From assembly GCA_964057225.1 (NCBI GenBank), contig OZ059895.1, positions 17,422,001 to 17,486,000 of the forward strand: a DNA stretch of 64,000 nucleotides, given 5' to 3'. Made by a program: the position numbers and the translations under genes. The DNA is from Auanema rhodensis (Eukaryota > Animalia > Nematoda). Below are positions 1 through 52,995 of this stretch, in pieces (position 1 is the first letter of the stretch; each line of letters begins with the position of its first letter). The notes below the pieces were generated by a model. It saw only the letters and a list, made by a program, of their open reading frames with translations. It searched no databases and was not told the origin of the DNA.

Positions 1-55
1 GCATTGTTGAAAGTGACTAAGAGATTATAATCGAGAAATGAGAATAACTTTTTAA

Positions 56-127
56 GCCTCATTGGCTCAGGGGCAGAGCGTCTGTCTAGTAAACAGTAAG
101 TCGCTGGTTTGATTCCAGCATGAGGCA
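56..127 (+). pseudogene. Variant tRNA-Thr(AGT) with anticodon-stem mismatch and T-loop TTTGA (C56T)
   Basis: ACAGTAAGTC instead of ACAGAAGGTC; GGTTTGATTCC instead of GGTTCGATTCC (B-box damaged). Confidence 0.7.
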
Positions 128-299
128 TCGTTTTAGACTTCTTCAAACTATTTTGAGGATTAATTCGTGCTTCTTGAAGCTTTTACTTCAGGTTACATCT
201 TCTGTTATTCATTCGAATGAAATATTTTACTTCAATACGGAGCAGTATTGTTAAAAGTGACTAAGAGATTATAATAGAGAAATGAGAATAACTTATCAA

Positions 300-371
300 G
301 CCTCATTGGCTCAGGGGCAGAGCGTCTGTCTAGTAAACAGAAGGTCGCTGGTTCGATTCCAGCATGAGGCA
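300..371 (+). tRNA. tRNA-Thr(AGT), representative intact copy (well over 100 intact copies in the window)
   Basis: Full cloverleaf: acceptor GCCTCAT/ATGAGGC + A73; D arm GCTC/GAGC; anticodon arm TCTGT-CT AGT AA-ACAGA; variable loop AGGTC; T arm GCTGG-TTCGATT-CCAGC; no encoded CCA. Confidence 0.96.
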
Positions 372-388
372 TCGTTTTAGACTTTTTC
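372..388 (+). terminator. RNA polymerase III oligo-T terminator (representative; follows every unit)
   Basis: TCGTTTTAGACTTTTT (T4 then T5) directly after the discriminator base; some units have TCTTTTT. Confidence 0.75.
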
Positions 389-543
389 AAACTATTTTGA
401 GGATTAATTCGTGCTTCTTGAAGCTTTTACTTCAGGTTACATCTTCTCTTATTCATTCGAATGAAATATTTTACTTCAATACGGAGCAGTATTGTTAAAA
501 GTGACAAAGTGATTATTATCGACAAATGAAAACAACTTATCAA

Positions 544-596
544 GCCTCATTGGCTCAGGGGCAGAGCGTCTATCTAGTCGATTCCAGCATGAGGCA
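544..596 (+). pseudogene. tRNA-Thr pseudogene with 19-bp internal deletion (representative of the 225-bp unit)
   Basis: ...TCTAGT^CGATTCC...; AAACAGAAGGTCGCTGGTT is missing, removing the 3' anticodon stem, variable loop, 5' T stem and the start of the B box. Confidence 0.93.
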
Positions 597-3500
597 TCGT
601 TTTAGACTTTCTCAAACTATTTTGAGGATTAATTCGTGCTTCTCGAAGCTTTTACTTCAGGTTACATCTTCTCTTATTCATTCAAATGAATTGTTTCAAT
701 TGAATATGTAAACGCATTGTTGAAAGTGACTAAGAGATTATAATCGAGAAATGAGAATAACTTTTTAAGCCTCATTGGCTCAGGGGCAGAGCGTCTGTCT
801 AGTAAACAGAAGGTCGCTGGTTCGATTCCAGCATGAGGCATCGTTTTAGACTTTTTCAAAATATTTTGAAGATTAATTCGTGCTTCTTGAAGCTTTTACT
901 TCAAGTTACATCTTCTCTTATTCATTCGAATGAAATATTTTACTTCAATACGGAGCAGTATTGTTAAAAGTGACAAAGTGATTATTATCGACAAATGAAA
1001 ACAACTTATCAAGCCTCATTGGCTCAGGGGCAGAGCGTCTGTCTAGTAAACAGAAGGTCGCTGGTTCGATTCCAGCATGAGGCATCGTTTTAGACTTTTT
1101 CAAACTATTTTGAGGATTAATTCGTGCTTCTCGAAGCTTTTACTTCAGGTTACATCTTCTCTTATTCATTCAAATGAATTGTTTCAATTGAATATGTAAA
1201 CGCATTGTTGAAAGTGACTAAGAGATTATAATCGAGAAATGAGAATATCTTTTTAAGCCTCATTGGCTCAGGGGCAGAGCGTCTGTCTAGTAAACAGAAG
1301 GTCGCTGGTTCGATTCCAGCATGAGGCATCTTTTTAGACTTTCTCAAACTATTTTTAGGATTCATTCGTGCTTCTCGAAGCTTTTACTTCAGGTTACATC
1401 TTCTCTTATTCATTCGAATGAAATATTTTACTTCAATACGGAGCAGTATTGTTAAAAGTGACAAAGTGATTATTATCGACAAATGAAAACAACTTATCAA
1501 GCCTCATTGGCTCAGGGGCAGAGCGTCTGTCTAGTCGATTCCAGCATGAGGCATTGTTTTAGACTTTCTCAAACTATTTTGAGGATTAAATCGTGCTTCT
1601 CGAAGCTTTTACTTCAGGTTACATCTTCTCTTATTCATTCAAATGAATTGTTTCAATTGAATATGTAAACGCATTGTTGAAAGTGACTAAGAGATTATAA
1701 TCGAGAAATGAAAATAACTTTTTAAGCCTCATTGGCTCAGGGGCAGAGCGTCTGTCTAGTAAACAGAAGGTCGCTGGTTCGATTTCAGCATGAGGCATCT
1801 TTTTAGACTTTCTCAAACTATTTTTAGGATTCATTCGTGCTTCTCGAAGCTTTTACTTCAGGTTACATCTTCTCTTATTCATTCGAATGAAATATTTTAC
1901 TTCAATACGGAGCAGTATTGTTAAAAGTGACAAAGTGATTATTATCGACAAATGAAAACAACTTATCAAGCCTCATTGGCTCAGGGGCAGAGCGTCTGTC
2001 TAGTAAACAGAAGGTCGCTGGTTCGATTCCAGCATGAGGCATCGTTTTAGACTTTTTCAAACTATTTTGAGGATTAATTCGTGCTTCTTGAAGCTTTTAC
2101 TTCAGGTTACATCTTCTCTTATTCATTCGAATGAAATATTTTACTTCAATACGGAGCAGTATTGTTAAAAGTGACAAAGTGATTATTATCGACAAATGAA
2201 AACAACTTATCAAGCCTCATTGGCTCAGGGGCAGAGCGTCTGTCTAGTAAACAGAAGGTCGCTGGTTCGATTCCAGCATGAGGCATCGTTTTAGACTTTT
2301 TCAAACTATTTTGAGGATTAATTCGTGCTTCTTGAAGCTTTTACTTCAGGTTACATCTTCTCTTATTCATTCGAATGAAATATTTTACTTCAATACGAAG
2401 CAGTATTGTTAAAAGTGACAAAGTGATTATTATCGACAAATGAAAACAACTTATCAAGCCTCATTGGCTCAGGGGCTGAGCGTCTGTCTAGTCGATTCCA
2501 GCATGAGGCATCGTTTTAGACTTTCTCAAACTATTTTGAGGATTAATTCGTGCTTCTCGAAGCTTTTACTTCAGGTTACATCTTCTCTTATTCATTCAAA
2601 TGAATTGTTTCAATTGAATATGTAAACGCATTGTTGAAAGTGACTAAGAGATTATAATCGAGAAATGAGAATAACTTTTTAAGCCTCATTGGCTCAGGGG
2701 CAGAGCGTCTGTCTAGTAAACAGAAGGTCGCTGGTTCGATTCCAGCATGAGGCATCGTTTTAGACTTTTTCAAAATATTTTGAAGATTAATTCGTGCTTC
2801 TTGAAGCTTTTACTTCAGGTTACATCTTCTCTTATTCATTCGAATGAAATATTTTACTTCAATACGGAGCAGTATTGTTAAAAGTGACAAAGTGATTATT
2901 ATCGACAAATGAAAACAACTTATCAAGCCTCATTGGCTCAGGGGCAGAGCGTCTGTCTAGTCGATTCCAGCATGAGGCATTGTTTTAGACTTTCTCAAAC
3001 TATTTTGAGGATTAAATCGTGCTTCTCGAAGCTTTTACTTCAGGTTACATCTTCTCTTATTCATTCAAATGAATTGTTTCAATTGAATATGTAAACGCAT
3101 TGTTGAAAGTGACTAAGAGATTATAATCGAGAAATGAAAATAACTTTTTAAGCCTCATTGGCTCAGGGGCAGAGCGTCTGTCTAGTAAACAGAAGGTCGC
3201 TGGTTCGATTCCAGCATGAGGCATTGTTTTAGACTTTCTCAAACTATTTTGAGGATTAAATCGTGCTTCTCGAAGCTTTTACTTCAGGTTACATCTTCTC
3301 TTATTCATTCAAATGAATTGTTTCAATTGAATATGTAAACGCATTGTTGAAAGTGACTAAGAGATTATAATCGAGAAATGAAAATAACTTTTTAAGCCTC
3401 ATTGGCTCAGGGGCAGAGCGTCTGTCTAGTAAACAGAAGGTCGCTGGTTCGATTCCAGCATGAGGCATCTTTTTAGACTTTCTCAAACTATTTTTAGGAT

Positions 3501-3864
3501 TCATTCGTGCTTCTCGAAGCTTTTACTTCAGGTTACATCTTCTCTTATTCATTCGAATGAAATATTTTACTTCAATACGAAGCAGTATTGTTAAAAGTGA
3601 CAAAGTGATTATTATCGACAAATGAAAACAACTTATCAAGCCTCATTGGCTCAGGGGCAGAGCGTCTGTCTAGTCGATTCCAGCATGAGGCATCGTTTTA
3701 GACTTTCTCAAACTATTTTGAGGATTAATTCGTGCTTCTCGAAGCTTTTACTTCAGGTTACATCTTCTCTTATTCATTCAAATGAATTGTTTCAATTGAA
3801 TATGTAAACGCATTGTTGAAAGTGACTAAGAGATTATAATCGAGAAATGAGAATAACTTTTTAA

Positions 3865-3889
3865 GCCTCATTGGCTCAGGGGCAGAGCG
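3865..3889 (+). pseudogene. 5' part of tRNA-Thr interrupted by LTR element 1 (3' part at 11643-11694)
   Basis: GCCTCA...GCAGAGCG then the LTR; the gene resumes at GAGCGTCTGTCTAGT at 11643. Confidence 0.95.
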
Positions 3890-4304
3890 TATCGCGAATG
3901 CGATTATCCATCATTCAATCGATGCAATCTCATCACGTTGGCTGATGAGATTCACGGGCACTCTGTTTTATACCACCGTCGCGGACGGTCGCTTTTCTCT
4001 CTCCTCGTTGCTGTCTTTATCTTATGACTCATCTAGTCTGAACCACCGTTTTATCCTTGTCCTTTAGTAAGACTATCTCTAGTCTCATTAGTGATGTATA
4101 TCTAGTCTTATTACATTCACTCTAGTCTTCTATGTATTTTATCTAGTCTTATTATATATCTTCTAGTCCTTATATTCTGTATTATGTATATCTGAATGGC
4201 ATATGAATGAATCTTTCTTCCTCTAATAGTATTTTACGTTAACAGGGCATAGAATAGAAAGTGTGAACCTGGGAGGCTATTTGAAGAGCCCTCTATCTTC
4301 AAAA
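3890..4304 (+). repeat. 5' LTR of element 1 (415 bp, TATCGCG...CTTCAAAA)
   Basis: Direct repeat of 11228-11642; followed immediately by the PBS. Confidence 0.95.
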
Positions 4305-4316
4305 TGGTGCATCGGC
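4305..4316 (+). promoter_or_regulatory. Primer binding site, probably for tRNA-Gly(GCC)
   Basis: TGGTGCATCGGC directly after the 5' LTR; complementary to ...CGATGCACCA, the 3' end of invertebrate tRNA-Gly(GCC) as I recall it. Confidence 0.8.
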
Positions 4317-4326
4317 ATCACTTTCT

Positions 4327-5330
4327 ACTCTATGACCTTTCTATTGCGCTACTTTATCTTTTTTCTTTTTTTTTCTTCAAGCCAGTCTGCTCGTTAATAG
4401 TGACTCGTTGGATGTCCTTTACAGTATAAGTTCACTGATCTAAATACTCTAAAGGAATCGTATGTCAGTATGACATAATTGGTTGTTAAATATTGTCTAG
4501 ATATCAGTGATAATTAAACATTATTTAAAATTTTGGTTGATACCATATTTTTGTACCACATGATTACAGAAAGTAACATAGTGGGTTGTTCGCTATATAA
4601 ACTCTATTGGATTACCCAATGGCTACTTCCTTTAACTTGCCGGCAGTGACTCAGCTGGGATTGATCACCCCTTATTATGTTTCACAGTATTTTCCTAGGA
4701 AGAATATGCGAGAGTACGAGAAAAATGCAGACAAAGTACCAACAAACACATTTTATGGCGATCTTATTTTTACTGACTGAGGACAGTGAGAAACAATGAT
4801 ATGAATTACGCATTAGCAAAGCTACCGTCTAAAAACGCTATTTATTCATTTATTCTTTGATTTTGAGACCTTTTTATATCTTTTATATTTTACGTAACTT
4901 TCAATAATCATTGCAAACAGTTTTGATAGACTTCGAGTGCAAAAGTTATTTTAACAATTGTGAATCAATTGAATAGGTGACTAAAAGGCATCTTAGACCA
5001 ATGTCTCCTTGCTATATGAGTAATGCTGTCTGTTTCCTCATCTGTAAAGGAGTCAGTATCTTAGAGATCAACGATTATTTGTGAACATGTGTGGAAGGAG
5101 CCTATCAACAAGGAACGTCTGTTGACCTACTTGTTGATGTTTGTTTGGTACCCTTGCACTCTCGGTAGGTGTTGTTTATATAAAAATGCGAAAGAGTTCC
5201 GAGTTTTTACTATTTACGGCTTGTTTTATAGTTTTTAAATTTCTTTATTCATCCATTGTCTGTAAATCTATTGTTTCCAACCATATGAGTCATATGTAAC
5301 GACCAACGGGTCAATGAGAAAGGTCAGAGT
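4327..5330 (+). other. Predicted large nested fold-back RNA structure in the element leader
   Basis: About ten complementary segment pairs in nested order, found by eye (see findings). Confidence 0.55.
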
Positions 5331-6994
5331 CCAAATCATGAAATTCATAAAATTTATATATTTTATCTTATATAAGATCATCACCCACGTTCTATAGGAC
5401 AAAATACATTAACTATATTGTTAAAATCCTACGCAGATGAAAATTTCTGTGAAAAATCACAAAACATCATAATATCCCATCCTACATAGATGAGATAATG
5501 ATAAGACACGAAAGAGCTACGAATTATCATCCTACGCATGTTAAAGCATAAAATATAAATCTCAGCAAAGGTTAAGAGATATTTCCAACATTTTGCACCA
5601 AAAAGTCGATTTTAGCAAATATGTTGACAAGATACGCGAAAAAAGACAAAAGATGTTGCCATCTGTTCATTGACCTGGTGCGGCGCCATTAGCACCACGC
5701 AAACATCTCTCACACATTATCTAGGTCATCATCGAATGACATGGAATATCAAAACATTTTAAAATGTTATGAGAAGTTAACCCACTCGTTTTGTTTCAAA
5801 CGCATTAAATAATCTCATTTAATAATCTTACATATACTTTTTGCAGATTAGCTCCTCCCTCTTAACATCCCACACGGCCTAGCTGCCAGACAGGTCATTC
5901 ATTCCGCCGCTACAACCAGCCACAGCACCCGACGCCATCTGCTAACCTATTCACCAGACAAGGACAATCGACATCAAGGATCCTCAAGGAGAATCAAGTT
6001 AGTTTTCATTTGTTCGCATTAACACTTTAACCGCTTATTGAATTTGAATTGATACTCTCTGGTATCAATTATACATTTACATTAAGTTGGTAAGTTATTT
6101 TATAATTTCAATTTGTTTTATTTTAATTTTATTATTTCACATTTTATATTGTTTATATTTCATTCACATCTGTTATCTTATACAATTTCCTTTGTTCATC
6201 TGTCCAGAAATAAATCTTTTGTCTCAAATCACTCATCCTTTTCATACACATACTTTCTGATCAATCAAACAATAATATTTTGAATATTTTTTGGATATCC
6301 TTATTATATTTCAACCAATTAATATTAATATTGATATTATATTTTTTGATAAAAAACAACAGCATATTTAGTATCAAATTACTCAGAAAACTTTACTGAA
6401 TTCATCCAAGCTAGTTTGCTCACATTTTTTGATCGATTTTGGGAAACTCAATTTTTTCTCTCTATTTCCTACAGTAATCTCTCAACTTGAATTGTTCTCT
6501 CATCTAGTGAATCATCCAATTTTTCTTTTTTAACCAGAGAAAGATACTTATTGAATTATCTTTGCCTGAACAATCTCCATTTTAAAAAAAAAAAAAAAAA
6601 AAATTAAAAATATACTAACTTAGCTAACAAAAAAAAAAAAAAATATATTCAAAAGATAAAACATACATTTTTTTACAAAAGATTCCACACAAGTAATTTA
6701 ACGAAACAGTAACAACTACACGAAAAAACTAACAGTATAACTCTCCAAAGAAAAAACTGTTAACAAATATTCAACTAAATATTCATTGTACCTTCTAATA
6801 GTGAACTATTTGCTTATCTTATTTGCTTATATTACTTGTTTATTTATATTCCTATTTATATTATATATTGTTATTCCTTCTATCGACAGCTATTATATTC
6901 GGACTTTAATTCAATTGATTTTAATAATCAATCCACAAATTAGCTAGATTAAACACAAAATTAACTTGAACAATAATATTTCTCTTCAAACAAA

Positions 6995-7039
6995 ATGATT
7001 ATGAGTCCCTCTTCTCCATCGGAAACTCGTAACTCGTAA
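6995..7039 (+). other. Short upstream ORF (MIMSPSSPSETRNS*), probably the original start of the long ORF, separated from it by a 7-bp tandem duplication
   Basis: AACTCGT duplicated at 7024-7037; removing one copy puts ATG 6995/7001 in frame with the long ORF. Confidence 0.65.
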
Positions 7040-7094
7040 CCTGACTGCCTTAGCAAGACAGTTAAGTTGTTTAAAAAGAAATATAACTCACGCG

Positions 7095-10000
7095 TTGAAG
7101 TTGTTCAACACGGTGAAGGAGGACATCCTCCCGTACCATCAAGCATTCATCTTCCCCCCGGTTGATGACATTGACAGATGTCGAGAGTTCATACATACGC
7201 ACAAGCCTAGCTTGATGCGTATATATTATAAAGCCATCCCGGTTGGGGACGTCTTCCGATCACTACGAGATCAGTTAGACGAACATCGAGTGGTGCTCGA
7301 GGAACGCACCCATGTGGACTACCCAGCAACTTGGTTGGAATTATACCAAGGTAGCTATAAAAGGATGTTGGCCAAACACCCTCAAGCCCATAAGACCATG
7401 AAAGCTCATGAAATCGACCAACTTGTCACCAAAGACATTGGCGAAGAACATCCGCCCACAGTTGCAAAACTGATCAAGGGCATTTTGGACTATTGTGATG
7501 AGAGAGATCTCATTGTGAACACAGGCGAAGTTGAGGAATATACTCAACTTATCCAACTTCGCCGAGATGAACTCGATGACTATCAGAGTTCATTTGACTC
7601 TACAGTACATGACTCAACAACATTGCAAAATGACATGAACAGAATGAAATACTCCAGAAAAAATTTAGAGATGAGTTTCTTTTCTGGAATACAAAAACAT
7701 TTAAACAACATTCAGAAAACACTTGACAAAATTTGGCAACGATGGCATAATGAATATGTCGTCGCCCTTCGAGCAACACACATGTTGGATCACAAGCAAG
7801 GACATTTCTCCACAGCTACACCAAAAGTAGGCACAGTAGTGCTAATGTCAGATGACAATACGAAACGAAACCAGTGGAAAATGGGTTTAATAACAAGCAT
7901 ACAGAACACGGAATCTGTGAGAGTTGCAGAAGTCCGTACATCTGATGGACACAAACTAATTAGACCCATCAATCGCCTGATTCCCCTTGAAATTCCTTCC
8001 GACAACGAGCATCATACGGAAAACAGTCATACGCAGTCCCCACACAAATCAGACAAAACTGTCACGTTTAAAGAAACTCCAGAGGTCATTTTACTCGATA
8101 ACGAAGTATCCACCGTTGTGGAAACCAGCACATCGACCGGACCCAATACAACTGAAAACGTGATAGACCCAAACGTTATCACTATCAACGATGATGATGA
8201 CATCGAAGTGATCACCATTGCAGATGATGAAGGTGAAAATGAACCACAACCTCGAAAACGACAACGTCTCCCCAGTTACACACATTTTTTCATAGCCATG
8301 ATACTGGGTATTCTCGTCAATACAATGTCCGCAACCAACATCTGCCAGTTCTCTTGCATCAAAGGAGGAGTAGGCATATCAAACTGCGGTACTGGACATC
8401 CCATCCGAGTTTGTGCCCGAGAAACATGTGTAGAGTACAACCCAAATACTCCCAACTTCACCATAGTATTTCCGGCTCATGTTGTATTGCATGACCACAC
8501 ATTCATCTCACGACATATTATCGATAAAAATGACACATTTGCATTGCATCAACTGGATTGTCCAGCAACTCCGTTTTGCGATATGATTCAATGTCTGTTC
8601 TGTCTTGAACTACTCCACAACCCATCTTGTTTCCCATACGCAGCACTCTCGGCGACCGCACTCATCATATGGCTCATTCTATTTAGCATTCTTTTAAGCA
8701 TCATAGTCATCCGAATTTGTTCTAAAAAATTTGTTCATATTGCACAATACACCCTTTTTTCCGTTTGGCGTATGATCACTCAATGTCTCCCATCTCATAT
8801 AAGATCTCATATCTCTATTCAGGAAGAACGATCGGTACTCGAGTACGTCCCGCTCAGTTCTCACAAGCTACCTCGATGGCAGAAGTCTACACCCTCACAA
8901 CGATCACGACAACGTGACCGATTAGTTCACCGAGTCGGGTATCTTTTGGTTGCAATAATCGTCATTTTTTTGATTGAATCTCTTGTAGTTAATGCATGTA
9001 CTATTGTTCCTCCGAGTATATCACATGTTCCAGGCAACTCCGTCTCGAACTTATCACCTACCCACCAAGTCAACCAAGTCAGCAGCTCCACCACCCTCCA
9101 TACTTACGATAATGAGGTATGTTTCACAACTTCACATTCAAACCGATCATACGCCAATCCCCTCACGAACTCACACCTGCGCATCAAACTTATGTATACA
9201 CGTATACTGTGCACGAAAGTATCCTTATTTTTTACACGTCACACCATCGTAAAAACTGAATCCGCAAAACGGTGTCCCCATATGGGCTCTTGTGTAGGAT
9301 CGTTTTGTGCGAACGTTCGACCCAATACATCAATCTCAGAACTCTCATTAGCCAACCAATATCCAGGTACCAGCTATTGTTCAGAAAGCTGTGGATTTCT
9401 ATCATGCGGTTGTGCGTTGCCAACTTCTGGTTGTCTCTTCTATCGCAACTTTCATGTTCCCAATGACAATATCACCCACGAAGTTTTCTACTGCTCACGA
9501 TGGACACCTAGGGTTTTTCTCCAGATTAGCATCCATACAGCTATTGAGAACAAAACTGAAACGATCTCGCACGTCCCCTTTTTACCACACTCTACAAAAA
9601 TCATTAACGGGTACCATATTACTCTTGGGAGAATAACATATTCTGATAATGAAATCCTCCATAGACGATTCATTACTTCCAACTCGAGAATTGCAGTTTT
9701 ACCTCACTCTGCTACATTTTCATACTCGTGCGGAAAAGTTAAAACCGCTGACCCATTCTCCGAATGTACTGTAACAGACACATGTTCATGCAGACCAGCC
9801 GAAACAGTCGAAAATTGCTATTGTCAGGACAGCAATCCTAACATGCTCTATACTAATAACTACACCCTACCATTATCTCTTCCATCTCTGACCATGATCC
9901 CAAAAAACAATCTCATTTTTGCTCATCCCATAAGCGCTGTTGACATTAAAATGTGGACAAATATCTCAGATGTCACTTATGAATACGACAATAGTCCTAC

Positions 10001-10637
10001 TATTTGCGAACTAAAATCCAAAGACCTAGTTGGATGTTTTGACTGTGTTACTGGAGCAACAACAATCATTACTTGCATCAGTACATCATCCCACATTCGA
10101 ATTTCGTGCGACGATGAAGAATTTCTGCTTACATGCAATTCTCAGGGTTACAACAACTCTATTCCCATACAGAGCAATTTTTCAACACCGTCTATAACGT
10201 GTACTCATCCGTGTACTTCCGCCACATTACATCTCAAAGGCAACTTGTACTACGTGAACGAATACATAGGTTTTGAACAGTCCACTCATCAGATTACAAA
10301 CAGTTCATTCAGTCTCCTGAACGTCGAGTTTACCATACCGAGCTTTTTTGTACCCACTCACTTAATCAGCTCACTTGTTTCGTTTTACTCGGACTACCTT
10401 AAAACGATTGTAATACTATTGAGTGTTTTGATCACAGTACTCGGCTTTGTAACCGCCGTAATTGACCGCGTCTTCCAGTTGTCAAGTACACCCGCTCTCC
10501 TAGCATATTTACCCATACAAATACTTATTATCTGCGCAATTCCTTTTCGCATCATTTTTTTCACAATTCATTTGTTGTTCAAGATTGTAGTTCGAGCCAG
10601 TCATAGCGCAGTGGCTAAGGGTACGCACTCTCAGTGA
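7095..10637 (+). CDS. Internally deleted BEL/Pao polyprotein: gag-like N-terminus, integrase C-terminal (DUF5641-like) domain, phlebovirus-like Gn/Gc envelope
   Basis: LDKIWQRWHNEY...PKVGTVVL...RNQWKMGLI...RPINRLIPLE (~7720-7995); signal-like FFIAMILGILVNTMSA; Cys-rich Gn with TM; second signal ending VVNA|C; Gc motifs RCPHMGSC and CSESCGFLSCGCALPTSGCLFYR; C-terminal TMs. Called start is TTG; frame is open from 7005; first in-frame ATG is 7215. Confidence 0.88.
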   Translation: MKLFNTVKEDILPYHQAFIFPPVDDIDRCREFIHTHKPSLMRIYYKAIPVGDVFRSLRDQLDEHRVVLEERTHVDYPATWLELYQGSYKRMLAKHPQAHKTMKAHEIDQLVTKDIGEEHPPTVAKLIKGILDYCDERDLIVNTGEVEEYTQLIQLRRDELDDYQSSFDSTVHDSTTLQNDMNRMKYSRKNLEMSFFSGIQKHLNNIQKTLDKIWQRWHNEYVVALRATHMLDHKQGHFSTATPKVGTVVLMSDDNTKRNQWKMGLITSIQNTESVRVAEVRTSDGHKLIRPINRLIPLEIPSDNEHHTENSHTQSPHKSDKTVTFKETPEVILLDNEVSTVVETSTSTGPNTTENVIDPNVITINDDDDIEVITIADDEGENEPQPRKRQRLPSYTHFFIAMILGILVNTMSATNICQFSCIKGGVGISNCGTGHPIRVCARETCVEYNPNTPNFTIVFPAHVVLHDHTFISRHIIDKNDTFALHQLDCPATPFCDMIQCLFCLELLHNPSCFPYAALSATALIIWLILFSILLSIIVIRICSKKFVHIAQYTLFSVWRMITQCLPSHIRSHISIQEERSVLEYVPLSSHKLPRWQKSTPSQRSRQRDRLVHRVGYLLVAIIVIFLIESLVVNACTIVPPSISHVPGNSVSNLSPTHQVNQVSSSTTLHTYDNEVCFTTSHSNRSYANPLTNSHLRIKLMYTRILCTKVSLFFTRHTIVKTESAKRCPHMGSCVGSFCANVRPNTSISELSLANQYPGTSYCSESCGFLSCGCALPTSGCLFYRNFHVPNDNITHEVFYCSRWTPRVFLQISIHTAIENKTETISHVPFLPHSTKIINGYHITLGRITYSDNEILHRRFITSNSRIAVLPHSATFSYSCGKVKTADPFSECTVTDTCSCRPAETVENCYCQDSNPNMLYTNNYTLPLSLPSLTMIPKNNLIFAHPISAVDIKMWTNISDVTYEYDNSPTICELKSKDLVGCFDCVTGATTIITCISTSSHIRISCDDEEFLLTCNSQGYNNSIPIQSNFSTPSITCTHPCTSATLHLKGNLYYVNEYIGFEQSTHQITNSSFSLLNVEFTIPSFFVPTHLISSLVSFYSDYLKTIVILLSVLITVLGFVTAVIDRVFQLSSTPALLAYLPIQILIICAIPFRIIFFTIHLLFKIVVRASHSAVAKGTHSQ

Positions 10638-10668
10638 TTGATGACGGGTTCAATACCCAGTGAGTCCT
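10597..10668 (+). ncRNA. Degenerate tRNA-like sequence with Pol III A and B boxes inside the element
   Basis: A box TAGCGCAGTGG 10604-10614; B box GGTTCAATACC 10647-10657 within a GGG/CCC T-stem; partial D and acceptor stems; T4 at 10676-10679. Confidence 0.55.
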
Positions 10669-10864
10669 CGATTTATTTTCTCGATTTCTTAGTTCCCTAT
10701 CATAGCAAACGATTGTTCAATTTGATTTACACCAGTCCTACACAATTTATCATTTTGCCGCGGGGAGGTATACTACGTATAAAAACCATCATTATTTCAG
10801 TCTTGATAACATCAAAGAATGGAGCGATTCCCTTGATCAACTCCAGGATAACGGCAACTCAAAG

Positions 10865-11194
10865 ATGCCTAACAAAAGTCAGAATACGTCTGCACCAAAA
10901 AAGCAGAACAACTCTAAAGTGAAGTACAGAAAAATGGAAGAAGACATGAAATGTCAACTCTGTTGGAAGAAGGGCCACACCATGGGAAAATGCACAGTCT
11001 ACAAGACTGCAGCACAACGCGTCAAGCGTTGCAAGTTGATCAACATGTGCTTGAAGTGTTTGCGGAACCACTTTGGAAAACCGTGTGTGGAGAAGATGAA
11101 GAAAATATGTCATGTGTGCAAAGGAAGCGGACTGGACCACGATCATCCTGGTGTATTATGCAAGCTGCAGTTTGCGGAGGAACTAGCAGAATGA
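10865..11194 (+). CDS. Stand-alone basic nucleocapsid-like protein with three BEL/Pao Gag-type zinc knuckles (109 aa)
   Basis: CQLCWKKGHTMGKC; CLKCLRNHFGKPC; CHVCKGSGLDHDHPGVLC; Lys-rich; own ATG; TATAAAAA at 10778 and TTTCAG acceptor at 10795-10800 upstream. Confidence 0.8.
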   Translation: MPNKSQNTSAPKKQNNSKVKYRKMEEDMKCQLCWKKGHTMGKCTVYKTAAQRVKRCKLINMCLKCLRNHFGKPCVEKMKKICHVCKGSGLDHDHPGVLCKLQFAEELAE

Positions 11195-11218
11195 AATCAG
11201 TTCTGATTTCTCTCTCCT

Positions 11219-11227
11219 GGCCCGGAA
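11219..11227 (+). promoter_or_regulatory. Putative plus-strand primer (PPT position)
   Basis: GGCCCGGAA immediately before the 3' LTR; only weakly purine-rich. Confidence 0.55.
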
Positions 11228-11642
11228 TATCGCGAATGCGATTATCCATCATTCAATCGATGCAATCTCATCACGTTGGCTGATGAGATTCACGGGCACT
11301 CTGTTTTATACCACCGTCGCGGACGGTCGCTTTTCTCTCTCCTCGTTGCTGTCTTTATCTTATGACTCATCTAGTCTGAACCACCGTTTTATCCTTGTCC
11401 TTTAGTAAGACTATCTCTAGTCTCATTAGTGATGTATATCTAGTCTTATTACATTCACTCTAGTCTTCTATGTATTTTATCTAGTCTTATTATATATCTT
11501 CTAGTCCTTATATTCTGTATTATGTATATCTGAATGGCATATGAATGAATCTTTCTTCCTCTAATAGTATTTTACGTTAACAGGGCATAGAATAGAAAGT
11601 GTGAACCTGGGAGGCTATTTGAAGAGCCCTCTATCTTCAAAA
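11228..11642 (+). repeat. 3' LTR of element 1 (415 bp)
   Basis: No difference from 3890-4304 seen by eye; followed by TSD GAGCG. Confidence 0.95.
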
Positions 11643-14600
11643 GAGCGTCTGTCTAGTAAACAGAAGGTCGCTGGTTCGATTCCAGCATGAGGCATCGTTT
11701 TAGACTTTTTCAAAATATTTTGAAGATTAATTCGTGCTTCTTGAAGCTTTTACTTCAGGTTACATCTTCTCTTATTCATTCGAATGAAATATTTTACTTC
11801 AATACGGAGCAGTATTGTTAAAAGTGACAAAGTGATTATTATCGACAAATGAAAACAACTTATCAAGCCTCATTGGCTCAGGGGCAGAGCGTCTGTCTAG
11901 TCGATTCCAGCATGAGGCATTGTTTTAGACTTTCTCAAACTATTTTGAGGATTAAATCGTGCTTCTCGAAGCTTTTACTTCAGGTTACATCTTCTCTTAT
12001 TCATTCAAATGAATTGTTTCAATTGAATATGTAAACGCATTGTTGAAAGTGACTAAGAGATTATAATCGAGAAATGAAAATAACTTTTTAAGCCTCATTG
12101 GCTCAGGGGCAGAGCGTCTGTCTAGTAAACAGAAGGTCGCTGGTTCGATTCCAGCATGAGGCATCTTTTTAGACTTTCTCAAACTATTTTTAGGATTCAT
12201 TCGTGCTTCTCGAAGCTTTTACTTCAGGTTACATCTTCTCTTATTCATTCGAATGAAATATTTTACTTCAATACGGAGCAGTATTGTTAAAAGTGACAAA
12301 GTGATTATTATCGACAAATGAAAACAACTTATCAAGCCTCATTGGCTCAGGGGCAGAGCGTCTGTCTAGTAAACAGAAGGTCGCTGGTTCGATTCCAGCA
12401 TGAGGCATCGTTTTAAACTTTTTCAAAATATTTTGAGGATTAATTCGTGCTTCTTGAAGCTTTTACTTCAGGTTACATCTTCTCTTATTCATTCGAATGA
12501 AATATTTTACTTCAATACGGAGCAGTATTGTTAAAAGTGACAAAGTGATTATTATCGACAAATGAAAACAACTTATCAAGCCTCATTGGCTCAGGGGCAG
12601 AGCGTCTGTCTAGTAAACAGAAGGTCGCTGGTTCGATTCCAGCATGAGGCATCGTTTTAGACTTTTTCAAACTATTTTGAGGATTAATTCGTGCTTCTTG
12701 AAGCTTTTACTTCAGGTTACATCTTCTCTTATTCATTCGAATGAAATATTTTACTTCAATACGAAGCAGTATTGTTAAAAGTGACAAAGTGATTATTATC
12801 GACAAATGAAAACAACTTATCAAGCCTCATTGGCTCAGGGGCAGAGCGTCTGTCTAGTCGATTCCAGCATGAGGCATCGTTTTAGACTTTCTCAAACTAT
12901 TTTGAGGATTAATTCGTGCTTCTCGAAGCTTTTACTTCAGGTTACATCTTCTCTTATTCATTCAAATGAATTGTTTCAATTGAATATGTAAACGCATTGT
13001 TGAAAGTGACTAAGAGATTATAATCGAGAAATGAGAATAACTTTTTAAGCCTCATTGGCTCAGGGGCAGAGCGTCTGTCTAGTAAACAGAAGGTCGCTGG
13101 TTCGATTCCAGCATGAGGCATCGTTTTAGACTTTTTCAAAATATTTTGAAGATTAATTCGTGCTTCTTGAAGCTTTTACTTCAGGTTACATCTTCTCTTA
13201 TTCATTCGAATGAAATATTTTACTTCAATACGGAGCAGTATTGTTAAAAGTGACAAAGTGATTATTATCGACAAATGAAAACAACTTATCAAGCCTCATT
13301 GGCTCAGGGGCAGAGCGTCTGTCTAGTCGATTCCAGCATGAGGCATTGTTTTAGACTTTCTCAAACTATTTTGAGGATTAAATCGTGCTTCTCGAAGCTT
13401 TTACTTCAGGTTACATCTTCTCTTATTCATTCAAATGAATTGTTTCAATTGAATATGTAAACGCATTGTTGAAAGTGACTAAGAGATTATAATCGAGAAA
13501 TGAAAATAACTTTTTAAGCCTCATTGGCTCAGGGGCAGAGCGTCTGTCTAGTAAACAGAAGGTCGCTGGTTCGATTCCAGCATGAGGCATCTTTTTAGAC
13601 TTTCTCAAACTATTTTTAGGATTAATTCGTGCTTCTTGAAGCTTTTACTTCAGGTTACATCTTCTCTTATTCATTCGAATGAAATATTTTACTTCAATAC
13701 GGAGCAGTATTGTTAAAAGTGACAAAGTGATTATTATCGACAAATGAAAACAACTTATCAAGCCTCATTGGCTCAGGGGCAGAGCGTCTGTCTAGTCGAT
13801 TCCAGCATGAGGCATTGTTTTAGACTTTCTCAAACTATTTTGAGGATTAAATCGTGCTTCTCGAAGCTTTTACTTCAGGTTACATCTTCTCTTATTCATT
13901 CAAATGAATTGTTTCAATTGAATATGTAAACGCATTGTTGAAAGTGACTAAGAGATTATAATCGAGAAATGAAAATAACTTTTTAAGCCTCATTGGCTCA
14001 GGGGCAGAGCGTCTGTCTAGTAAACAGAAGGTCGCTGGTTCGATTCCAGCATGAGGCATCTTTTTAGACTTTCTCAAACTATTTTTAGGATTAATTCGTG
14101 CTTCTCGAAGCTTTTACTTCAGGTTACATCTTCTCTTATTCATTCGAATGAAATATTTTACTTCAATACGGAGCAGTATTGTTAAAAGTGACAAAGTGAT
14201 TATTATCGACAAATGAAAACAACTTATCAAGCCTCATTGGCTCAGGGGCAGAGCGTCTGTCTAGTCGATTCCAGCATGAGGCATTGTTTTAGACTTTCTC
14301 AAACTATTTTGAGGATTAATTCGTGCTTCTCGAAGCTTTTACTTCAGGTTACATCTTCTCTTATTCATTCAAATGAATTGTTTCAATTGAATATGTAAAC
14401 GCATTGTTGAAAGTGACTAAGAGATTATAATCGAGAAATGAGAATAACTTTTTAAGCCTCATTGGCTCAGGGGCAGAGCGTCTGTCTAGTAAACAGAAGG
14501 TCGCTGGTTCGATTCCAGCATGAGGCATCGTTTTAGACTTTTTCAAAATATTTTGAAGATTAATTCGTGCTTCTTGAAGCTTTTACTTCAGGTTACATCT

Positions 14601-17600
14601 TCTCTTATTCATTCGAATGAAATATTTTACTTCAATACGGAGCAGTATTGTTAAAAGTGACAAAGTGATTATTATCGACAAATGAAAACAACTTATCAAG
14701 CCTCATTGGCTCAGGGGCAGAGCGTCTGTCTAGTAAACAGAAGGTCGCTGGTTCGATTCCAGCATGAGGCATCTTTTTAGACTTTCTCAAACTATTTTGA
14801 GGATTAATTCGTGCTTCTCGAAGCTTTTACTTCAGGTTACATCTTCTCTTATTCATTCAAATGAATTGTTTCAATTGAATATGTAAACGCATTGTTGAAA
14901 GTGACTAAGAGATTATAATCGAGAAATGAAAATAACTTTTTAAGCCTCATTGGCTCAGGGGCAGAGCGTCTGTCTAGTAAACAGAAGGTCGCTGGTTCGA
15001 TTCCAGCATGAGGCATCTTTTTAGACTTTCTCAAACTATTTTGAGGATTAATTCGTGCTTCTCGAAGCTTTTACTTCAGGTTACATCTTCTCTTATTCAT
15101 TCAAATGAATTGTTTCAATTGAATATGTAAACGCATTGTTGAAAGTGACTAAGAGATTATAATAGAGAAATGAGAATAACTTTTTAAGCCTCATTGGCTC
15201 AGGGGCAGAGCGTCTGTCTAGTAAACAGAAGGTCGCTGGTTCGATTCCAGCATGAGGCATCGTTTTAGACTTTTTCAAAATATTTTGAAGATTAATTCGT
15301 GCTTCTTGAAGCTTTTACTTCAGGTTACATCTTCTCTTATTCATTCGAATGAAATATTTTACTTCAATACGGAGCAGTATTGTTAAAAGTGACAAAGTGA
15401 TTATTATCGACAAATGAAAACAACTTATCAAGCCTCATTGGCTCAGGGGCAGAGCGTCTGTCTAGTCGATTCCAGCATGAGGCATTGTTTTAGACTTTCT
15501 CAAACTATTTTGAGGATTAAATCGTGCTTCTCGAAGCTTTTACTTCAGGTTACATCTTCTCTTATTCATTCAAATGAATTGTTTCAATTGAATATGTAAA
15601 CGCATTGTTGAAAGTGACTAAGAGATTATAATCGAGAAATGAAAATAACTTTTTAAGCCTCATTGGCTCAGGGGCAGAGCGTCTGTCTAGTAAACAGAAG
15701 GTCGCTGGTTCGATTCCAGCATGAGGCATCTTTTTAGACTTTCTCAAACTATTTTTAGGATTAATTCGTGCTTCTCGAAGCTTTTACTTCAGGTTACATC
15801 TTCTCTTATTCATTCGAATGAAATATTTTACTTCAATACGGAGCAGTATTGTTAAAAGTGACAAAGTGATTATTATCGACAAATGAAAACAACTTATCAA
15901 GCCTCATTGGCTCAGGGGCAGAGCGTCTGTCTAGTCGATTCCAGCATGAGGCATTGTTTTAGACTTTCTCAAACTATTTTGAGGATTAATTCGTGCTTCT
16001 CGAAGCTTTTACTTCAGGTTACATCTTCTCTTATTCATTCAAATGAATTGTTTCAATTGAATATGTAAACGCATTGTTGAAAGTGACTAAGAGATTATAA
16101 TCGAGAAATGAGAATAACTTTTTAAGCCTCATTGGCTCAGGGGCAGAGCGTCTGTCTAGTAAACAGAAGGTCGCTGGTTCGATTCCAGCATGAGGCATCG
16201 TTTTAGACTTTTTCAAAATATTTTGAAGATTAATTCGTGCTTCTTGAAGCTTTTACTTCAGGTTACATCTTCTCTTATTCATTCGAATGAAATATTTTAC
16301 TTCAATACGGAGCAGTATTGTTAAAAGTGACAAAGTGATTATTATCGACAAATGAAAACAACTTATCAAGCCTCATTGGCTCAGGGGCAGAGCGTCTGTC
16401 TAGTAAACAGAAGGTCGCTGGTTCGATTCCAGCATGTGGCATCGTTTTAGACTTTTTCAAACTATTTTGAGGATTAATTCGTGCTTCTCGAAGCTTTTAC
16501 TTCAGGTTAGATCTTCTCTTATTCATTCAAATGAATTGTTTCAATTGAATATGTAAACGCATTGTTGAAAGTGACTAAGAGATTATAATCGAGAAATGAA
16601 AATAACTTTTTAAGCCTCATTGGCTCAGGGGCAGAGCGTCTGTCTAGTAAACAGAAGGTCGCTGGTTCGATTCCAGCATGAGGCATCTTTTTAGACTTTC
16701 TCAAACTATTTTAAGGATTAATTCGTGCTTCTCGAAGCTTTTACTTCAGGTTACATCTTCTCTTATTCATTCAAATGAATTGTTTCAATTGAATATGTAA
16801 ACGCATTGTTGAAAGTGACTAAGAGATTATAATCGAGAAATGAGAATAACTTTTTAAGCCTCATTGGCTCAGGGGCAGAGCGTCTGTCTAGTAAACAGAA
16901 GGTCGCTGGTTCGATTCCAGCATGAGGCATCGTTTTAGACTTTTTCAAAATATTTTGAAGATTAATTCGTGCTTCTTGAAGCTTTTACTTCAGGTTACAT
17001 CTTCTCTTATTCATTCGAATGAAATATTTTACTTCAATACGGAGCAGTATTGTTAAAAGTGACAAAGTGATTATTATCGACAAATGAAAACAACTTATCA
17101 AGCCTCATTGGCTCAGGGGCAGAGCGTCTGTCTAGTAAACAGAAGGTCGCTGGTTCGATTCCAGCATGAGGCATCGTTTTAGACTTTTTCAAACTATTTT
17201 GAGGATTAATTCGTGCTTCTCGAAGCTTTTACTTCAGGTTACATCTTCTCTTATTCATTCAAATGAATTGTTTCAATTGAATATGTAAACGCATTGTTGA
17301 AAGTGACTAAGAGATTATAATCGAGAAATGAAAATAACTTTTTAAGCCTCATTGGCTCAGGGGCAGAGCGTCTGTCTAGTAAACAGAAGGTCGCTGGTTC
17401 GATTCCAGCATGAGGCATCTTTTTAGACTTTCTCAAACTATTTTGAGGATTAATTCGTGCTTCTCGAAGCTTTTACTTCAGGTTACATCTTCTCTTATTC
17501 ATTCAAATGAATTGTTTCAATTGAATATGTAAACGCATTGTTGAAAGTGACTAAGAGATTATAATCGAGAAATGAGAATAACTCTTTAAGCCTCATTGGC

Positions 17601-20600
17601 TCAGGGGCAGAGCGTCTGTCTAGTAAACAGAAGGTCGCTGGTTCGATTCCAGCATGAGGCATCGTTTTAGACTTTTTCAAAATATTTTGAAGATTAATTC
17701 GTGCTTCTTGAAGCTTTTACTTCAAGTTACATCTTCTCTTATTCATTCGAATGAAATATTTTACTTCAATACGGAGCAGTATTGTTAAAAGTGACAAAGT
17801 GATTATTATCGACAAATGAAAACAACTTATCAAGCCTCATTGGCTCAGGGGCAGAGCGTCTGTCTAGTAAACAGAAGGTCGCTGGTTCGATTCCAGCATG
17901 AGGCATCGTTTTAGACTTTTTCAAACTATTTTGAGGATTAATTCGTGCTTCTCGAAGCTTTTACTTCAGGTTACATCTTCTCTTATTCATTCAAATGAAT
18001 TGTTTCAATTGAATATGTAAACGCATTGTTGAAAGTGACTAAGAGATTATTATCGACAAATGAAAACAACTTATCAAGCCTCATTGGCTCAGGGGCAGAG
18101 CGTCTGTCTAGTCGATTCCAGTATGAGGCATTGTTTTAGACTTTCTCAAACTATTTTGAGGATTAAATCGTGCTTCTCGAAGCTTTTACTTCAGGTTACA
18201 TCTTCTCTTATTCATTCAAATGAATTGTTTCAATTGAATATGTAAACGCATTGTTGAAAGTGACTAAGAGATTATAATCGAGAAATGAGAATAACTTTTT
18301 AAGCCTCATTGGCTCAGGGGCAGAGCGTCTGTCTAGTAAACAGAAGGTCGCTGGTTCGATTCCAGCATGAGGCATCTTTTTAGACTTTCTCAAACTATTT
18401 TTAGGATTCATTCGTGCTTCTCGAAGCTTTTACTTCAGGTTACATCTTCTCTTATTCATTCGAATGAAATATTTTACTTCAATACGGAGCAGTATTGTTA
18501 AAAGTGACAAAGTGATTATTATCGACAAATGAAAACAACTTATAAAGCCTCATTGGCTCAGGGGCAGAGCGTCTGTCTAGTAAACAGAAGGTCGCTGGTT
18601 CGATTCCAGCATGAGGCATCGTTTTAGACTTTTTCAAACTATTTTGAGGATTAATTCATGCTTCTCGAAGCTTTTACTTCAGGTTACATCTTCTCTTATT
18701 CATTCAAATGAAATGTTTCAATTGAATATGTAAACGCATTGTTGAAAGTGACTAAGAGATTATAATCGAGAAATGAGAATAACTTTTTAAGCCTCATTGG
18801 CTCAGGATCAGAGCGTCTGTCTAGTAAACAGAAGGTCGCTGGTTCGATTCCAGCATGAGGCATCGTTTTAGACTTTTTCAAACTATTTTGAGGATTAATT
18901 CGTGCTTCTTGAAGCTTTTACTTCAGGTTACATCTTCTCTTATTCATTCGAATGAAATATTTTACTTCAATACGGAGCAGTATTGTTAAAAGTGACAAAG
19001 TGATTATTATCGACAAATGAAAACAACTTATCAAGCCTCATTGGCTCAGGGGCAGAGCGTCTGTCTAGTAAACAGAAGGTCGCTGGTTCGATTCCAGCAT
19101 GAGGCATCGTTTTAGACTTTTTCAAACTATTTTGAGGATTAATTCGTGCTTCTTGAAGCTTTTACTTCAGGTTACATCTTCTCTTATTCATTCGAATAAA
19201 ATATTTTACTTCAATACGGAGCAGTATTGTTAAAAGTGACAAAGTGATTATTATCGACAAATGAAAACAACTTATCAAGCCTCATTGGCTCAGGGGCAGA
19301 GCGTCTGTCTAGTCGATTCCAGCATGAGGCATCGTTTTAGACTTTCTCAAACTATTTTGAGGATTAATTCGTGCTTCTCGAAGCTTTTACTTCAGGTTAC
19401 ATCTTCTCTTATTCATTCAAATGAATTGTTTCAATTGAATATGTAAACGCATTGTTGAAAGTGACTAAGAGATTATAATCGAGAAATGAGAATAACTTTT
19501 CAAGCCTCATTGGCTCAGGGGCAGAGCGTCTGTCTAGTAAACAGAAGGTCGCTGGTTCGATTCCAGCATGAGGCATCGTTTTAGACTTTCTCAAACTATT
19601 TTTAGGATTCATTCGTGCTTCTCGAAGCTTTTACTTCAGGTTACATCTTCTCTTATTCATTCAAATGAATTGTTTCAATTGAATATGTAAACGCATTGTT
19701 GAAAGTGACTAAGAGATTATAATCGAGAAATGAGAATAACTTTTTAAGCCTCATTGGCTCAGGGGCAGAGCGTCTGTCTAGTAAACAGTAGGTCGCTGGT
19801 TTGATTCCAGCATGAGGCATCGTTTTAGACTTCTTCAAACTATTTTGAGGATTAATTCGTGCTTCTTGAAGCTTTTACTTCAGGTTACATCTTCTGTTAT
19901 TCATTCGAATGAAATATTTTACTTCAATACGGAGCAGTATTGTTAAAAGTGACTAAGAGATTATAATAGAGAAATGAGAATAACTTATCAAGCCTCATTG
20001 GCTCAGGGGCAGAGCGTCTGTCTAGTAAACAGAAGGTCGCTGGTTCGATTCCAGCATGAGGCATCGTTTTAGACTTTTTCAAACTATTTTGAGGATTAAT
20101 TCGTGCTTCTCGAAGCTTTTACTTCAGGTTACATCTTCTGTTATTCATTCGAATGAAATATTTTACTTCAATACGGAGCAGTATTGTTAAAAGTGACAAA
20201 GTGATTATTATCGACAAATGAAAACAACTTATCAAGCCTCATTGGCTCAGGGGCAGAGCGTCTGTCTAGTAAACAGAAGGTCGCTGGTTCGATTCCAGCA
20301 TGAGGCATCGTTTTAGACTTTTTCAAACTATTTTGAGGATTAATTCGTGCTTCTCGAAGCTTTTACTTCAGGTTACATCTTCTCTTATTCATTCAAATGA
20401 ATTGTTTCAATTGAATATGTAAACGCATTGTTGAAAGTGACTAAGAGATTATAATCGAGAAATGAGAATAACTTTTTAAGCCTCATTGGCTCAGGGGCAG
20501 AGCGTCTGTCTAGTAAACAGAAGGTCGCTGGTTCGATTCCAGCATGAGGCATCGTTTTAGACTTTTTCAAAATATTTTGAAAATTAATTCGTGCTTCTTG

Positions 20601-45656: not shown

Positions 45657-46072
45657 TATCGCGAATGCGATTATCCATCATTCAATCGATGCAATCTCAT
45701 CACGTTGGCTGATGAGATTCACGGGCACTCTGTTTTTATACCACCGTCGCGGACGGTCGCTTTTCTCTCTCCTCGTTGCTGTCTTTATCTTATGACTCAT
45801 CTAGTCTGAACCACCGTTTTATCCTTGTCCTTTAGTAAGACTATCTCTAGTCTCATTAGTGATGTATATCTAGTCTTATTACATTCACTCTAGTCTTCTA
45901 TGTATTTTATCTAGTCTTATTATATATCTTCTAGTCCTTATATTCTGTATTATGTATATCTGAATGGCATATGAATGAATCTTTCTTCCTCTAATAGTAT
46001 TTTACGTTAACAGGGCATAGAATAGAAAGTGTGAACCTGGGAGGCTATTTGAAGAGCCCTCTATCTTCAAAA
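45657..46072 (+). repeat. 5' LTR of element 2 (416 bp)
   Basis: Direct repeat of 52996-53411. Confidence 0.95.
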
Positions 46073-46084
46073 TGGTGCATCGGC
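46073..46084 (+). promoter_or_regulatory. Primer binding site, probably tRNA-Gly(GCC)
   Basis: TGGTGCATCGGC after the 5' LTR. Confidence 0.8.
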
Positions 46085-52405: not shown

Positions 52406-52436
52406 TTGATGACGGGTTCAATACCCAGTGAGTCCT
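52365..52436 (+). ncRNA. Degenerate tRNA-like A/B-box module (copy 2)
   Basis: Same sequence as 10597-10668. Confidence 0.55.
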
Positions 52437-52962: not shown

Positions 52963-52995
52963 AATCAGTTCTGATTTCTCTCTCCTGGCCCGGAA

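What the first reader, a model, noticed from the sequence alone, without database searches (positions are those of the whole stretch)
3890..11642. Recently mobile pol-less BEL/Pao element that keeps an intact phlebovirus-like envelope: a possible helper-dependent, two-component endogenous virus
Seen: a ~3.5 kb uninterrupted frame fusing a short N-terminal region to the BEL integrase C-terminal tail and full Gn/Gc, with no PR, RT, RH or integrase core. LTR pairs match and the two insertions are independent. Known: nematode belpaoviruses (some C. elegans Cer elements, the Ancylostoma Atlas element) carry phlebovirus-like class II fusogens, normally at the end of a complete gag-pol-env polyprotein. 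Inference: this element needs a helper for RT/IN. The in-frame deletion and intact env suggest it supplies envelope (and NC) in trans, a division of labour rather than simple decay.
Basis: partly seen in the sequence, partly recalled or inferred. Interest (0 to 1): 0.88.

Follow-up and report, generated by a model that had tools for sequence, protein, structure and literature searches.

The report
Young pol-deleted nematode endogenous virus copy
This is a recently inserted, internally deleted copy of a nematode retrovirus-like element that keeps its envelope gene but has lost its copying enzymes, and it most likely hitch-hikes on a near-identical longer relative that appears to carry its own envelope, so it is probably an ordinary freeloader, not one half of a two-part virus.

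Summary
Observation confirmed: two 99.9% identical copies (3890-11642, 45657-53411), identical LTRs, different 5-bp TSDs, and a 1210-codon frame with DUF5641 and phlebovirus-like Gn/Gc but no PR, RT, RH or integrase core. The division-of-labour reading is not supported. Public contigs show a longer form, over 99% identical, that parts from this element at a 7-nt overlap (7701-7707), exactly where DUF5641 begins, and likely continues into the same env. One sample holds both the deleted junction and the 3' side of the longer form. The long frame has no start of its own: the ATG at 7001 opens 12 codons, and the first in-frame ATG is codon 71. Env differs from the longer form at 11 sites, 7 amino-acid-changing and 4 silent, which fits neutrality; an intact env is expected at this age. 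Best reading: a non-autonomous deletion derivative mobilised in trans (0.8). New member of a known kind.

The parts
3885..3889 (+). Left target-site duplication GAGCG (nt 21-25 of a tRNA-Thr(AGT) gene); right copy at 11643-11647
3890..4304 (+). 5' LTR, 415 nt, ends TA..AA (not TG..CA), no terminal inverted repeat
4305..4316 (+). Primer-binding site TGGTGCATCGGC directly behind the LTR; match to the tRNA-Gly(GCC) 3' end is recalled, not tested
   Evidence: sequence
4317..7000 (+). 2.7-kb AT-rich (31% GC) leader without Pfam-detectable coding remains; present in the longer form too
7001..7039 (+). Likely gag start codon; in the window copies it opens only 12 codons, a frame break near 7026-7030 separating it from the long frame
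7005..7700 (+). Helical N-terminal part of the long frame, inferred Gag N-terminus (matrix-like); similarity to known Gag starts not significant
7701..7707 (+). Deletion junction: 7 nt shared by the 5' and 3' sides of the longer form; about 4.4 kb inferred missing
7704..7988 (+). DUF5641, C-terminal tail of the BEL/Pao integrase
8286..8984 (+). Gn-like glycoprotein: signal-like segment, Cys-rich ectodomain, transmembrane helix, second signal
8985..10637 (+). Gc-like class II fusion protein with C-terminal transmembrane helices
9034..9116 (+). Exon of the zinc-knuckle gene lying inside env in another frame; holds an ATG at 9112 in register with the 3' exon
9117..10800 (+). 1684-nt GT..AG intron (donor GAG|GTATGT, acceptor ATTTCAG|) that removes most of Gc
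10801..11194 (+). 3' exon: three Cys/His zinc knuckles, Cer19-ORF2-like accessory gene
11228..11642 (+). 3' LTR, identical to the 5' LTR
45657..53411 (+). Second, independently inserted copy; TSD GCTGG (nt 48-52 of a tRNA-Thr gene)
1..64000 (+). Host array of 244/225-nt units, each a tRNA-Thr(AGT) gene or a 19-nt-shorter pseudogene; 132 genes called, all on +; fills the window outside the two elements

Best explanation
The element is a young deletion derivative of an envelope-bearing nematode belpaovirus that has lost its capsid-to-integrase middle and is likely copied and inserted by enzymes of a near-identical longer relative, its envelope gene probably surviving because too little time has passed to break it. 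Shown: LTRs, PBS, TSDs, two separate insertions, no pol, a 7-nt overlap at the junction, a longer form over 99% identical, a long frame without its own start, a spliced zinc-knuckle gene. Inferred: the deletion arose by template switching or end joining at the 7-nt overlap; it removed CA, NC, PR, RT, RH and the IN core (about 4.4 kb); the deleted RNA keeps the cis signals, is packaged by helper Gag-Pol and may outnumber the helper, as D-type bovine ERVK does. Env and the knuckle gene are inherited from the parent, not a new role. The knuckle protein is likely still made from the deleted copies.
For: Junction: X8 contig 23 follows 6953-7707 and then runs on for 862 other letters; another X8 contig enters at 7701 with 255 or more other letters before it; DUF5641 starts at nt 7704. 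Coexistence: X4 has a contig bridging 7447-7761 in the deleted form (depth 32.4) and one entering at 7701 (depth 6.4). Env in X8: contigs over 7732-10990 with 1, 6 and 9 differences and no gaps. Neutral-looking env: 7 N to 4 S of 11. No own start; the break is shared by both window copies and by the X1 and X4 contigs over that place. In 20 of 20 full-length relatives examined the IN C-tail starts at aa 1519-1952, against 233 here. Three other pol-less gag+env gene models (P0015, P0086, P0144) each form a one-member cluster, as expected of separate accidents. Precedent: defective LTR-flanked, glycoprotein-bearing BEL/Pao copies (50 against 13 complete, PMC7642597); D-type ERVK keeping gag and env flanks (PMC10924933).
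Against: The extra letters of the longer form were not read, so pol is inferred, not seen. The link from the entering contig to env is overlap of contigs, not one molecule. In X4 only the 3' side of the longer form was listed. In X1 and X2 a contig runs unbroken across the deleted junction and no longer form was listed, so a helper is not shown in every holder (contigs drop rare variants). Eleven differences give little power: 4 of 11 silent is slightly above the neutral 23-28% and does not exclude purifying selection. RNA-like contigs bridge the deleted junction and cover parts of env (X2, X14), so env could be translated from an internal start. Depths are no copy numbers.
Confidence: 0.8

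Rival explanations
1. Two-component endogenous virus: the pol-less element supplies envelope (and the knuckle protein) to a helper that supplies Gag-Pol.
For: Env is whole and of normal length; the join keeps the frame; RNA-like contigs match the window's alleles across the junction and at 9125 (X2, X14); the knuckle gene is spliced; in X8 depth over env is about twice that over the gag part, hinting at further env-bearing forms (depth is weak evidence).
Against: The longer form likely has its own env. The long frame lacks its start, and no strong splice acceptor lies between 7005 and 9033 in a consensus scan. Env differences fit neutrality. No close conserved pol-less relative: the best 150 of 2684 hits are 24-41% identical.
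Confidence: 0.06
2. Partial contributor: a freeloader for Gag-Pol and env, but selected to keep and express the spliced zinc-knuckle protein, which aids export, packaging or reverse transcription of its own RNA (as CERV does for Cer1).
For: Splice joint in 3 of 3 RNA-guessed runs laid and in X2; ATG, donor, acceptor and phase are intact; post-env knuckles recur in gene models of several nematode genera.
Against: Function untested; the gene lies next to 3' cis signals and would be kept passively; the helper has it too (X8 contig to 10990); too young to show selection.
Confidence: 0.1
3. Host-useful envelope: the deleted copies are kept because Gn/Gc serves the worm (interference or cell fusion).
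For: Intact env; domesticated env genes are known in other animals (introduction of PMC9094657 relatives).
Against: Copies are days-young in evolutionary terms (identical LTRs), multi-copy, in a tRNA repeat array, lack the start, and differ between samples.
Confidence: 0.02

Closest known systems
Atlas virus of Ancylostoma ceylanicum and other env-bearing nematode belpaoviruses (PMC9094657: passages and section 6 read; bioRxiv 10.64898/2026.03.22.711591: part 1 of 6 read)
   Same: LTR element with DUF5641 followed by phlebovirus-like Gn and Gc in one frame; Gc matches PDB 7a4a at E 5e-33; helical N-terminal region where Atlas has its four-helix matrix.
   Different: No CA, NC, PR, RT, RH or IN core; 2.7-kb leader; long frame without its start; separate spliced knuckle gene; only about 30% identity to any catalogued relative.
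Cer19 of Caenorhabditis with ORF2 (PMC7084138: passages, section 7, supplement passages and part 2 of 3 read)
   Same: A separate zinc-knuckle gene between the LTRs, with the same Cys/His/Arg spacing of the first knuckle and a half (compared by eye); the C. inopinata homologue has gag-pol-env plus ORF2.
   Different: Here ORF2 lies 3' of env and its upstream exon sits inside env in another frame; the text I could read does not give the exon structure or side of Cer19-ORF2 (figure not seen). Orthology not tested by tree.
Non-autonomous ERV morphs: bovine ERVK[2-1-LTR] D-type, IAP I-Delta-1, ETn, RecKoRV (PMC10924933: abstract and section 20 read)
   Same: Central loss with LTRs and gag/env flanks kept; mobilised in trans; can outnumber the helper.
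   Different: Belpaovirus rather than retrovirus; clean deletion at a 7-nt overlap rather than swap of a central segment; env kept whole.
Defective Anakin BEL/Pao elements of mosquitoes (PMC7642597: passages read)
   Same: LTR-flanked BEL/Pao copies with a viral glycoprotein but without all domains (50 against 13 complete in Table 1).
   Different: Chuvirus glycoprotein, insects; recent mobility of the defective copies was not seen in the passages read.

Membership tests
Belpaoviridae (BEL/Pao), env-bearing nematode clade | Two LTRs, 5-bp TSD, tRNA primer site | tested here: met
   identity of the primer tRNA is recalled
Belpaoviridae (BEL/Pao), env-bearing nematode clade | LTR termini TG..CA | tested here: not met
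   both copies end TA..AA between 5-bp TSDs; usual TGN/NCA ends per PMC554778
Belpaoviridae (BEL/Pao), env-bearing nematode clade | PR, RT (YVDN), RNase H, integrase core | tested here: not met
   0 of 75 segments hit these families; 0 motif matches in six frames. The element is a derivative, not an autonomous member
Belpaoviridae (BEL/Pao), env-bearing nematode clade | DUF5641 integrase tail followed by phlebovirus-like Gn/Gc | tested here: met
Belpaoviridae (BEL/Pao), env-bearing nematode clade | Gag with DUF1759 and triple Cys-His box | tested here: not met
   absent from the long frame; a triple box stands only in the 3' gene; N-terminal part not significantly like 23 Gag starts
Belpaoviridae (BEL/Pao), env-bearing nematode clade | Placement by RT tree | not testable with these tools
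   no RT in the element; the longer form's RT was not available
Non-autonomous internal-deletion derivative | Near-identical longer relative sharing both flanks of the junction | tested here: met
   X8 both sides, X4 3' side; 7-nt overlap 7701-7707
Non-autonomous internal-deletion derivative | Deleted form itself retrotransposed | tested here: met
   two sites, two TSDs, copy-specific change in both LTRs
Non-autonomous internal-deletion derivative | Longer relative encodes working pol | not testable with these tools
   no genome held; only the lengths of the extra parts were used
Two-component (division-of-labour) endogenous virus | Pol-containing partner lacks env | tested here: not met
   longer form overlaps into env contigs in X8 and X4; by contig overlap, not by single molecule
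Two-component (division-of-labour) endogenous virus | Env of the pol-less part under purifying selection | tested here: inconclusive
   7 N: 4 S of 11, neutral expectation 72-77% N
Two-component (division-of-labour) endogenous virus | Env translated from the pol-less part | not testable with these tools
   no own start; contigs cannot show translation
Cer19-ORF2-like accessory gene | Separate expressed zinc-knuckle gene between the LTRs | tested here: met
   spliced joint in X12, X13, X14, X2; RNA status of these runs is a guess; zf-CCHC clusters nearest at 0.89, a lead only

The most novel reading that the evidence does not exclude
A belpaovirus lineage with TA..AA ends that favours tRNA genes has split into an autonomous helper and a more numerous pol-less partner that pays its way by making the spliced zinc-knuckle protein and, from an internal start, a class II envelope for shared particles: an incipient two-component endogenous virus caught within a fraction of a percent of its origin.
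Probability: 0.07. Interest if true: 0.8.

Novelty: new member of a known kind. Interest (0 to 1): 0.33.

Why it matters
As a freeloader it is ordinary, but it marks a currently active envelope-bearing belpaovirus family in a nematode, with helper and defective form in one sample, which makes trans-complementation observable in an animal where such activity is rarely caught. It gives the exon structure of a Cer19-ORF2-type accessory gene (first exon inside env, intron removing Gc, much like accessory genes of complex retroviruses), which I did not find described. The TA..AA termini would be missed by TG..CA-based annotation and raise a question about end processing by this integrase. If env were really supplied in trans to an env-less helper, it would be a first for LTR elements in the searches made; the evidence points away from that.

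Tried and rejected
Word-based protein searches found nothing, nor did a metagenome scan; these are insensitive at 30% identity and are no evidence. No listed holder is on record as RNA: 'no RNA holder listed'. Lack of cover at 6900-7189 is a filter effect (X4 covered it) and was not used. Single-sequence AlphaFold models of the N-terminal part (pLDDT 42) and of the knuckle exon (pLDDT 45) were too poor for a fold search, which was not run. ESM Atlas on the N-terminal part gave generic helical hits at low recognition; Pfam EspA (below cut-off) and globin-like PDB hits (E over 0.3) were rejected as helical noise. A profile of 23 Gag N-termini did not beat shuffles (37 of 300 as high); a three-member profile chosen afterwards gave 8 of 300, the best single pair 1 of 300 among 23 tests: not significant. 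Rfam: one match at E 0.15, rejected. Array duplication as origin of the second copy: rejected by different TSDs. Assembly artefact: rejected, since contigs of X1, X2 and X4 bridge the deleted junction. tRNA-specific targeting: 2 of 2 insertions lie in tRNA gene bodies that make up about 20% of the array (chance about 0.04, chosen after the fact), but at different positions; not accepted as site specificity. Bowen and McDonald 1999 and Ganko et al. 2001 are not held; they may already describe spliced accessory genes and LTR ends of Cer7-Cer20. Earlier findings of the scan gave nothing on this locus.
Full report
Observation. The window is a tandem array of tRNA-Thr(AGT) units (132 genes called) broken only by two copies of a 7.75-kb element, 3890-11642 and 45657-53411, 99.91% identical. 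Each copy has identical LTRs; the extra T of copy 2 is in both of its LTRs; the TSDs are GAGCG and GCTGG at tRNA nt 21-25 and 48-52. These are two separate retrotranspositions. The LTRs end TA..AA, not TG..CA. A primer site follows the 5' LTR directly (tRNA-Gly identity recalled). The frame 7005-10637 has 1210 codons, with DUF5641 at aa 234-328 and Phlebovirus_G2 at aa 693-974, a partial G1 match and Atlas Gc at E 5e-33. Of 75 six-frame segments of 40 aa or more, none hits a pol or capsid family.

Relatives. HMMER against 1.84 billion representatives gave 2684 hits; the best 150 are 24-41% identical. Of 20 looked up, the 16 named representatives are nematode proteins. In 20 full-length polyproteins the integrase tail starts at aa 1519-1952 (median 1710); here it starts at 233, so about 4.4 kb is missing. 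Gn and the linker before it are of ordinary length. The N-terminal 232 aa are predicted helical at low confidence and are not significantly like 23 Gag starts; that they are Gag is inferred from their position.

The parent. No genome is held, but 15 public runs of 4 studies hold the element or part of it; 7 were laid. In X8 one contig follows 6953-7707 with 5 substitutions and 1 gap and then runs on for 862 other letters; another enters at 7701 with at least 255 other letters before it; env follows in contigs over 7732-10990 with 1, 6 and 9 differences and no gaps. The two sides overlap by 7 nt, 7701-7707, and DUF5641 begins at 7704. This is the mark of a deletion at a short repeat. X4, of another study, has the deleted junction (contig 7447-7761, depth 32.4) and the contig entering at 7701 (depth 6.4); depth is no copy number, and the 5' side of the longer form was not listed there. 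X1, a possible source of the window, and X2 show only the deleted junction. The extra letters were not read, so pol in the longer form is inferred; its env is linked by contig overlap, not by one molecule.

Is env kept on purpose? The long frame has no start of its own. The ATG at 7001 opens 12 codons; the first in-frame ATG is codon 71, behind 36 ATGs of the leader and gag start. X8's copies differ in length near 7026-7030 and are, by frame arithmetic, in register with that ATG, whereas both window copies and the X1 and X4 contigs over the place share the break. A consensus scan found no strong acceptor between 7005 and 9033. Within env, X8 and the window differ at 11 sites (all of those counted in X8's two env contigs that fall in the frame): 7 change the residue, 4 do not; neutrality predicts 72-77% changing; about 60-70% of such copies would be stop-free by chance. 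This neither shows selection nor excludes it. Three other gag+env gene models without RT turned up among 20 hits picked from the 150 for a Pfam scan (P0015, P0086, P0144); each is a one-member cluster, which fits repeated accidents or prediction errors better than a conserved lineage.

The knuckles lie in a frame 3' of env. A joint skipping 1684 nt with GT..AG ends stands in X12, X13 and X14 (3 of 3 RNA-guessed runs laid, one study) and in X2, and is not listed for X1, X4 or X8. The donor is GAG|GTATGT at 9116, the acceptor ATTTCAG| at 10800, and an ATG at 9112 is in register with the knuckle frame. X2 is labelled DNA by guess, so the joined form could exist as DNA; its size (31 million letters) is nearer the RNA-like runs than X8 (76 million), and it holds spliced and unspliced forms, so I take it to be RNA. 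X2 matches the window without differences from 7280 to 11230 and bridges the deletion, so the deleted copies are likely transcribed. A separate knuckle gene between the LTRs is known as Cer19-ORF2, with a gag-pol-env homologue in C. inopinata (PMC7084138), and knuckles follow env in seven nematode gene models among the 150 hits. It is a feature of the parent family. By analogy with CERV of Cer1 (PMC10309623, passages) it may serve RNA export or packaging; this is untested.

Mechanism. Shown: cis signals intact, pol absent, separate insertions, near-identical longer form, spliced accessory gene. Inferred: a deletion at the 7-nt overlap made a shorter genome; its RNA is packaged, reverse-transcribed and integrated by the helper's proteins; it may outnumber the helper, as D-type bovine ERVK does while keeping gag and env flanks (PMC10924933). 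Defective LTR-flanked BEL/Pao copies with a viral glycoprotein are common in mosquitoes (PMC7642597). Env is most likely a passenger.

Against this reading. Pol was not seen; a helper was not listed in X1 or X2; RNA-like contigs cover part of env; X8's env depth is about twice its gag depth, which hints at other env-bearing forms; and the silent share is a little above neutral. These keep a small chance for trans supply of env (0.06) or of the knuckle protein (0.1).

Novelty. Ten paper searches showed, at the level of listings and the passages named above, no pol-less env-supplying belpaovirus, no exon map of an ORF2-type gene inside env, and no account of TA..AA ends or tRNA-array insertion for this group. 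The two main Cer papers are not held, figures were not seen, and supplements of the bioRxiv preprint were not opened; they may bear on these points. PMC554778 was read in passages. Verdict: real feature, new member of a known kind, interest 0.33. The side findings (spliced accessory gene, odd termini, tRNA array) are worth more than the two-component idea.

Noticed in passing
window 9034-9116 and 10801-11194: Spliced triple zinc-knuckle gene whose upstream exon lies inside env in another frame; the exon is stop-free from an acceptor-like site at 9033, so a further upstream exon or spliced leader is likely. Similar knuckles follow env in gene models of C. remanei (P0037, P0099), C. brenneri (P0124), Ostertagia (P0141), Acrobeloides (P0111), Trichostrongylus (P0123) and Caenorhabditis sp. 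36 (P0079).
   Followed up: partly
window 3890, 4304, 11228, 11642, 45657, 53411: LTR termini are TA..AA. The right end reads CA plus AAA directly before the primer site, as if the letters behind CA were not trimmed before integration (speculation).
   Followed up: partly
window 1-64000 outside the elements: Array of about 200 units of 244 or 225 nt, each a tRNA-Thr(AGT) gene or a pseudogene lacking 19 nt of the anticodon and variable arms, with higher-order repeats. Two paper searches gave no account of such an array in a nematode.
   Followed up: partly
window 3865-3889 and 45605-45656: Both insertions fall inside long (intact-type) tRNA gene bodies, on the same strand as the tRNA, at nt 21-25 and 48-52.
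   Followed up: partly
run X8, laid on 5361-10931: A second, more diverged relative (about 85-90% alike, depth about 50) matches leader, env and knuckle gene in patches, so the family has at least two subfamilies; env depth is about twice gag depth in this run.
   Followed up: no
proteins P0015, P0086, P0144: Gene models of Trichostrongylus, Ditylenchus and C. remanei join Gag (DUF1759, knuckles) to Gn/Gc without RT or integrase core; real deletions or gene-prediction artefacts, each a one-member cluster.
   Followed up: partly
window 4032-4168: Six copies of TCTAGTC at 20-45 nt spacing inside the LTR, a possible enhancer-like repeat.
   Followed up: no
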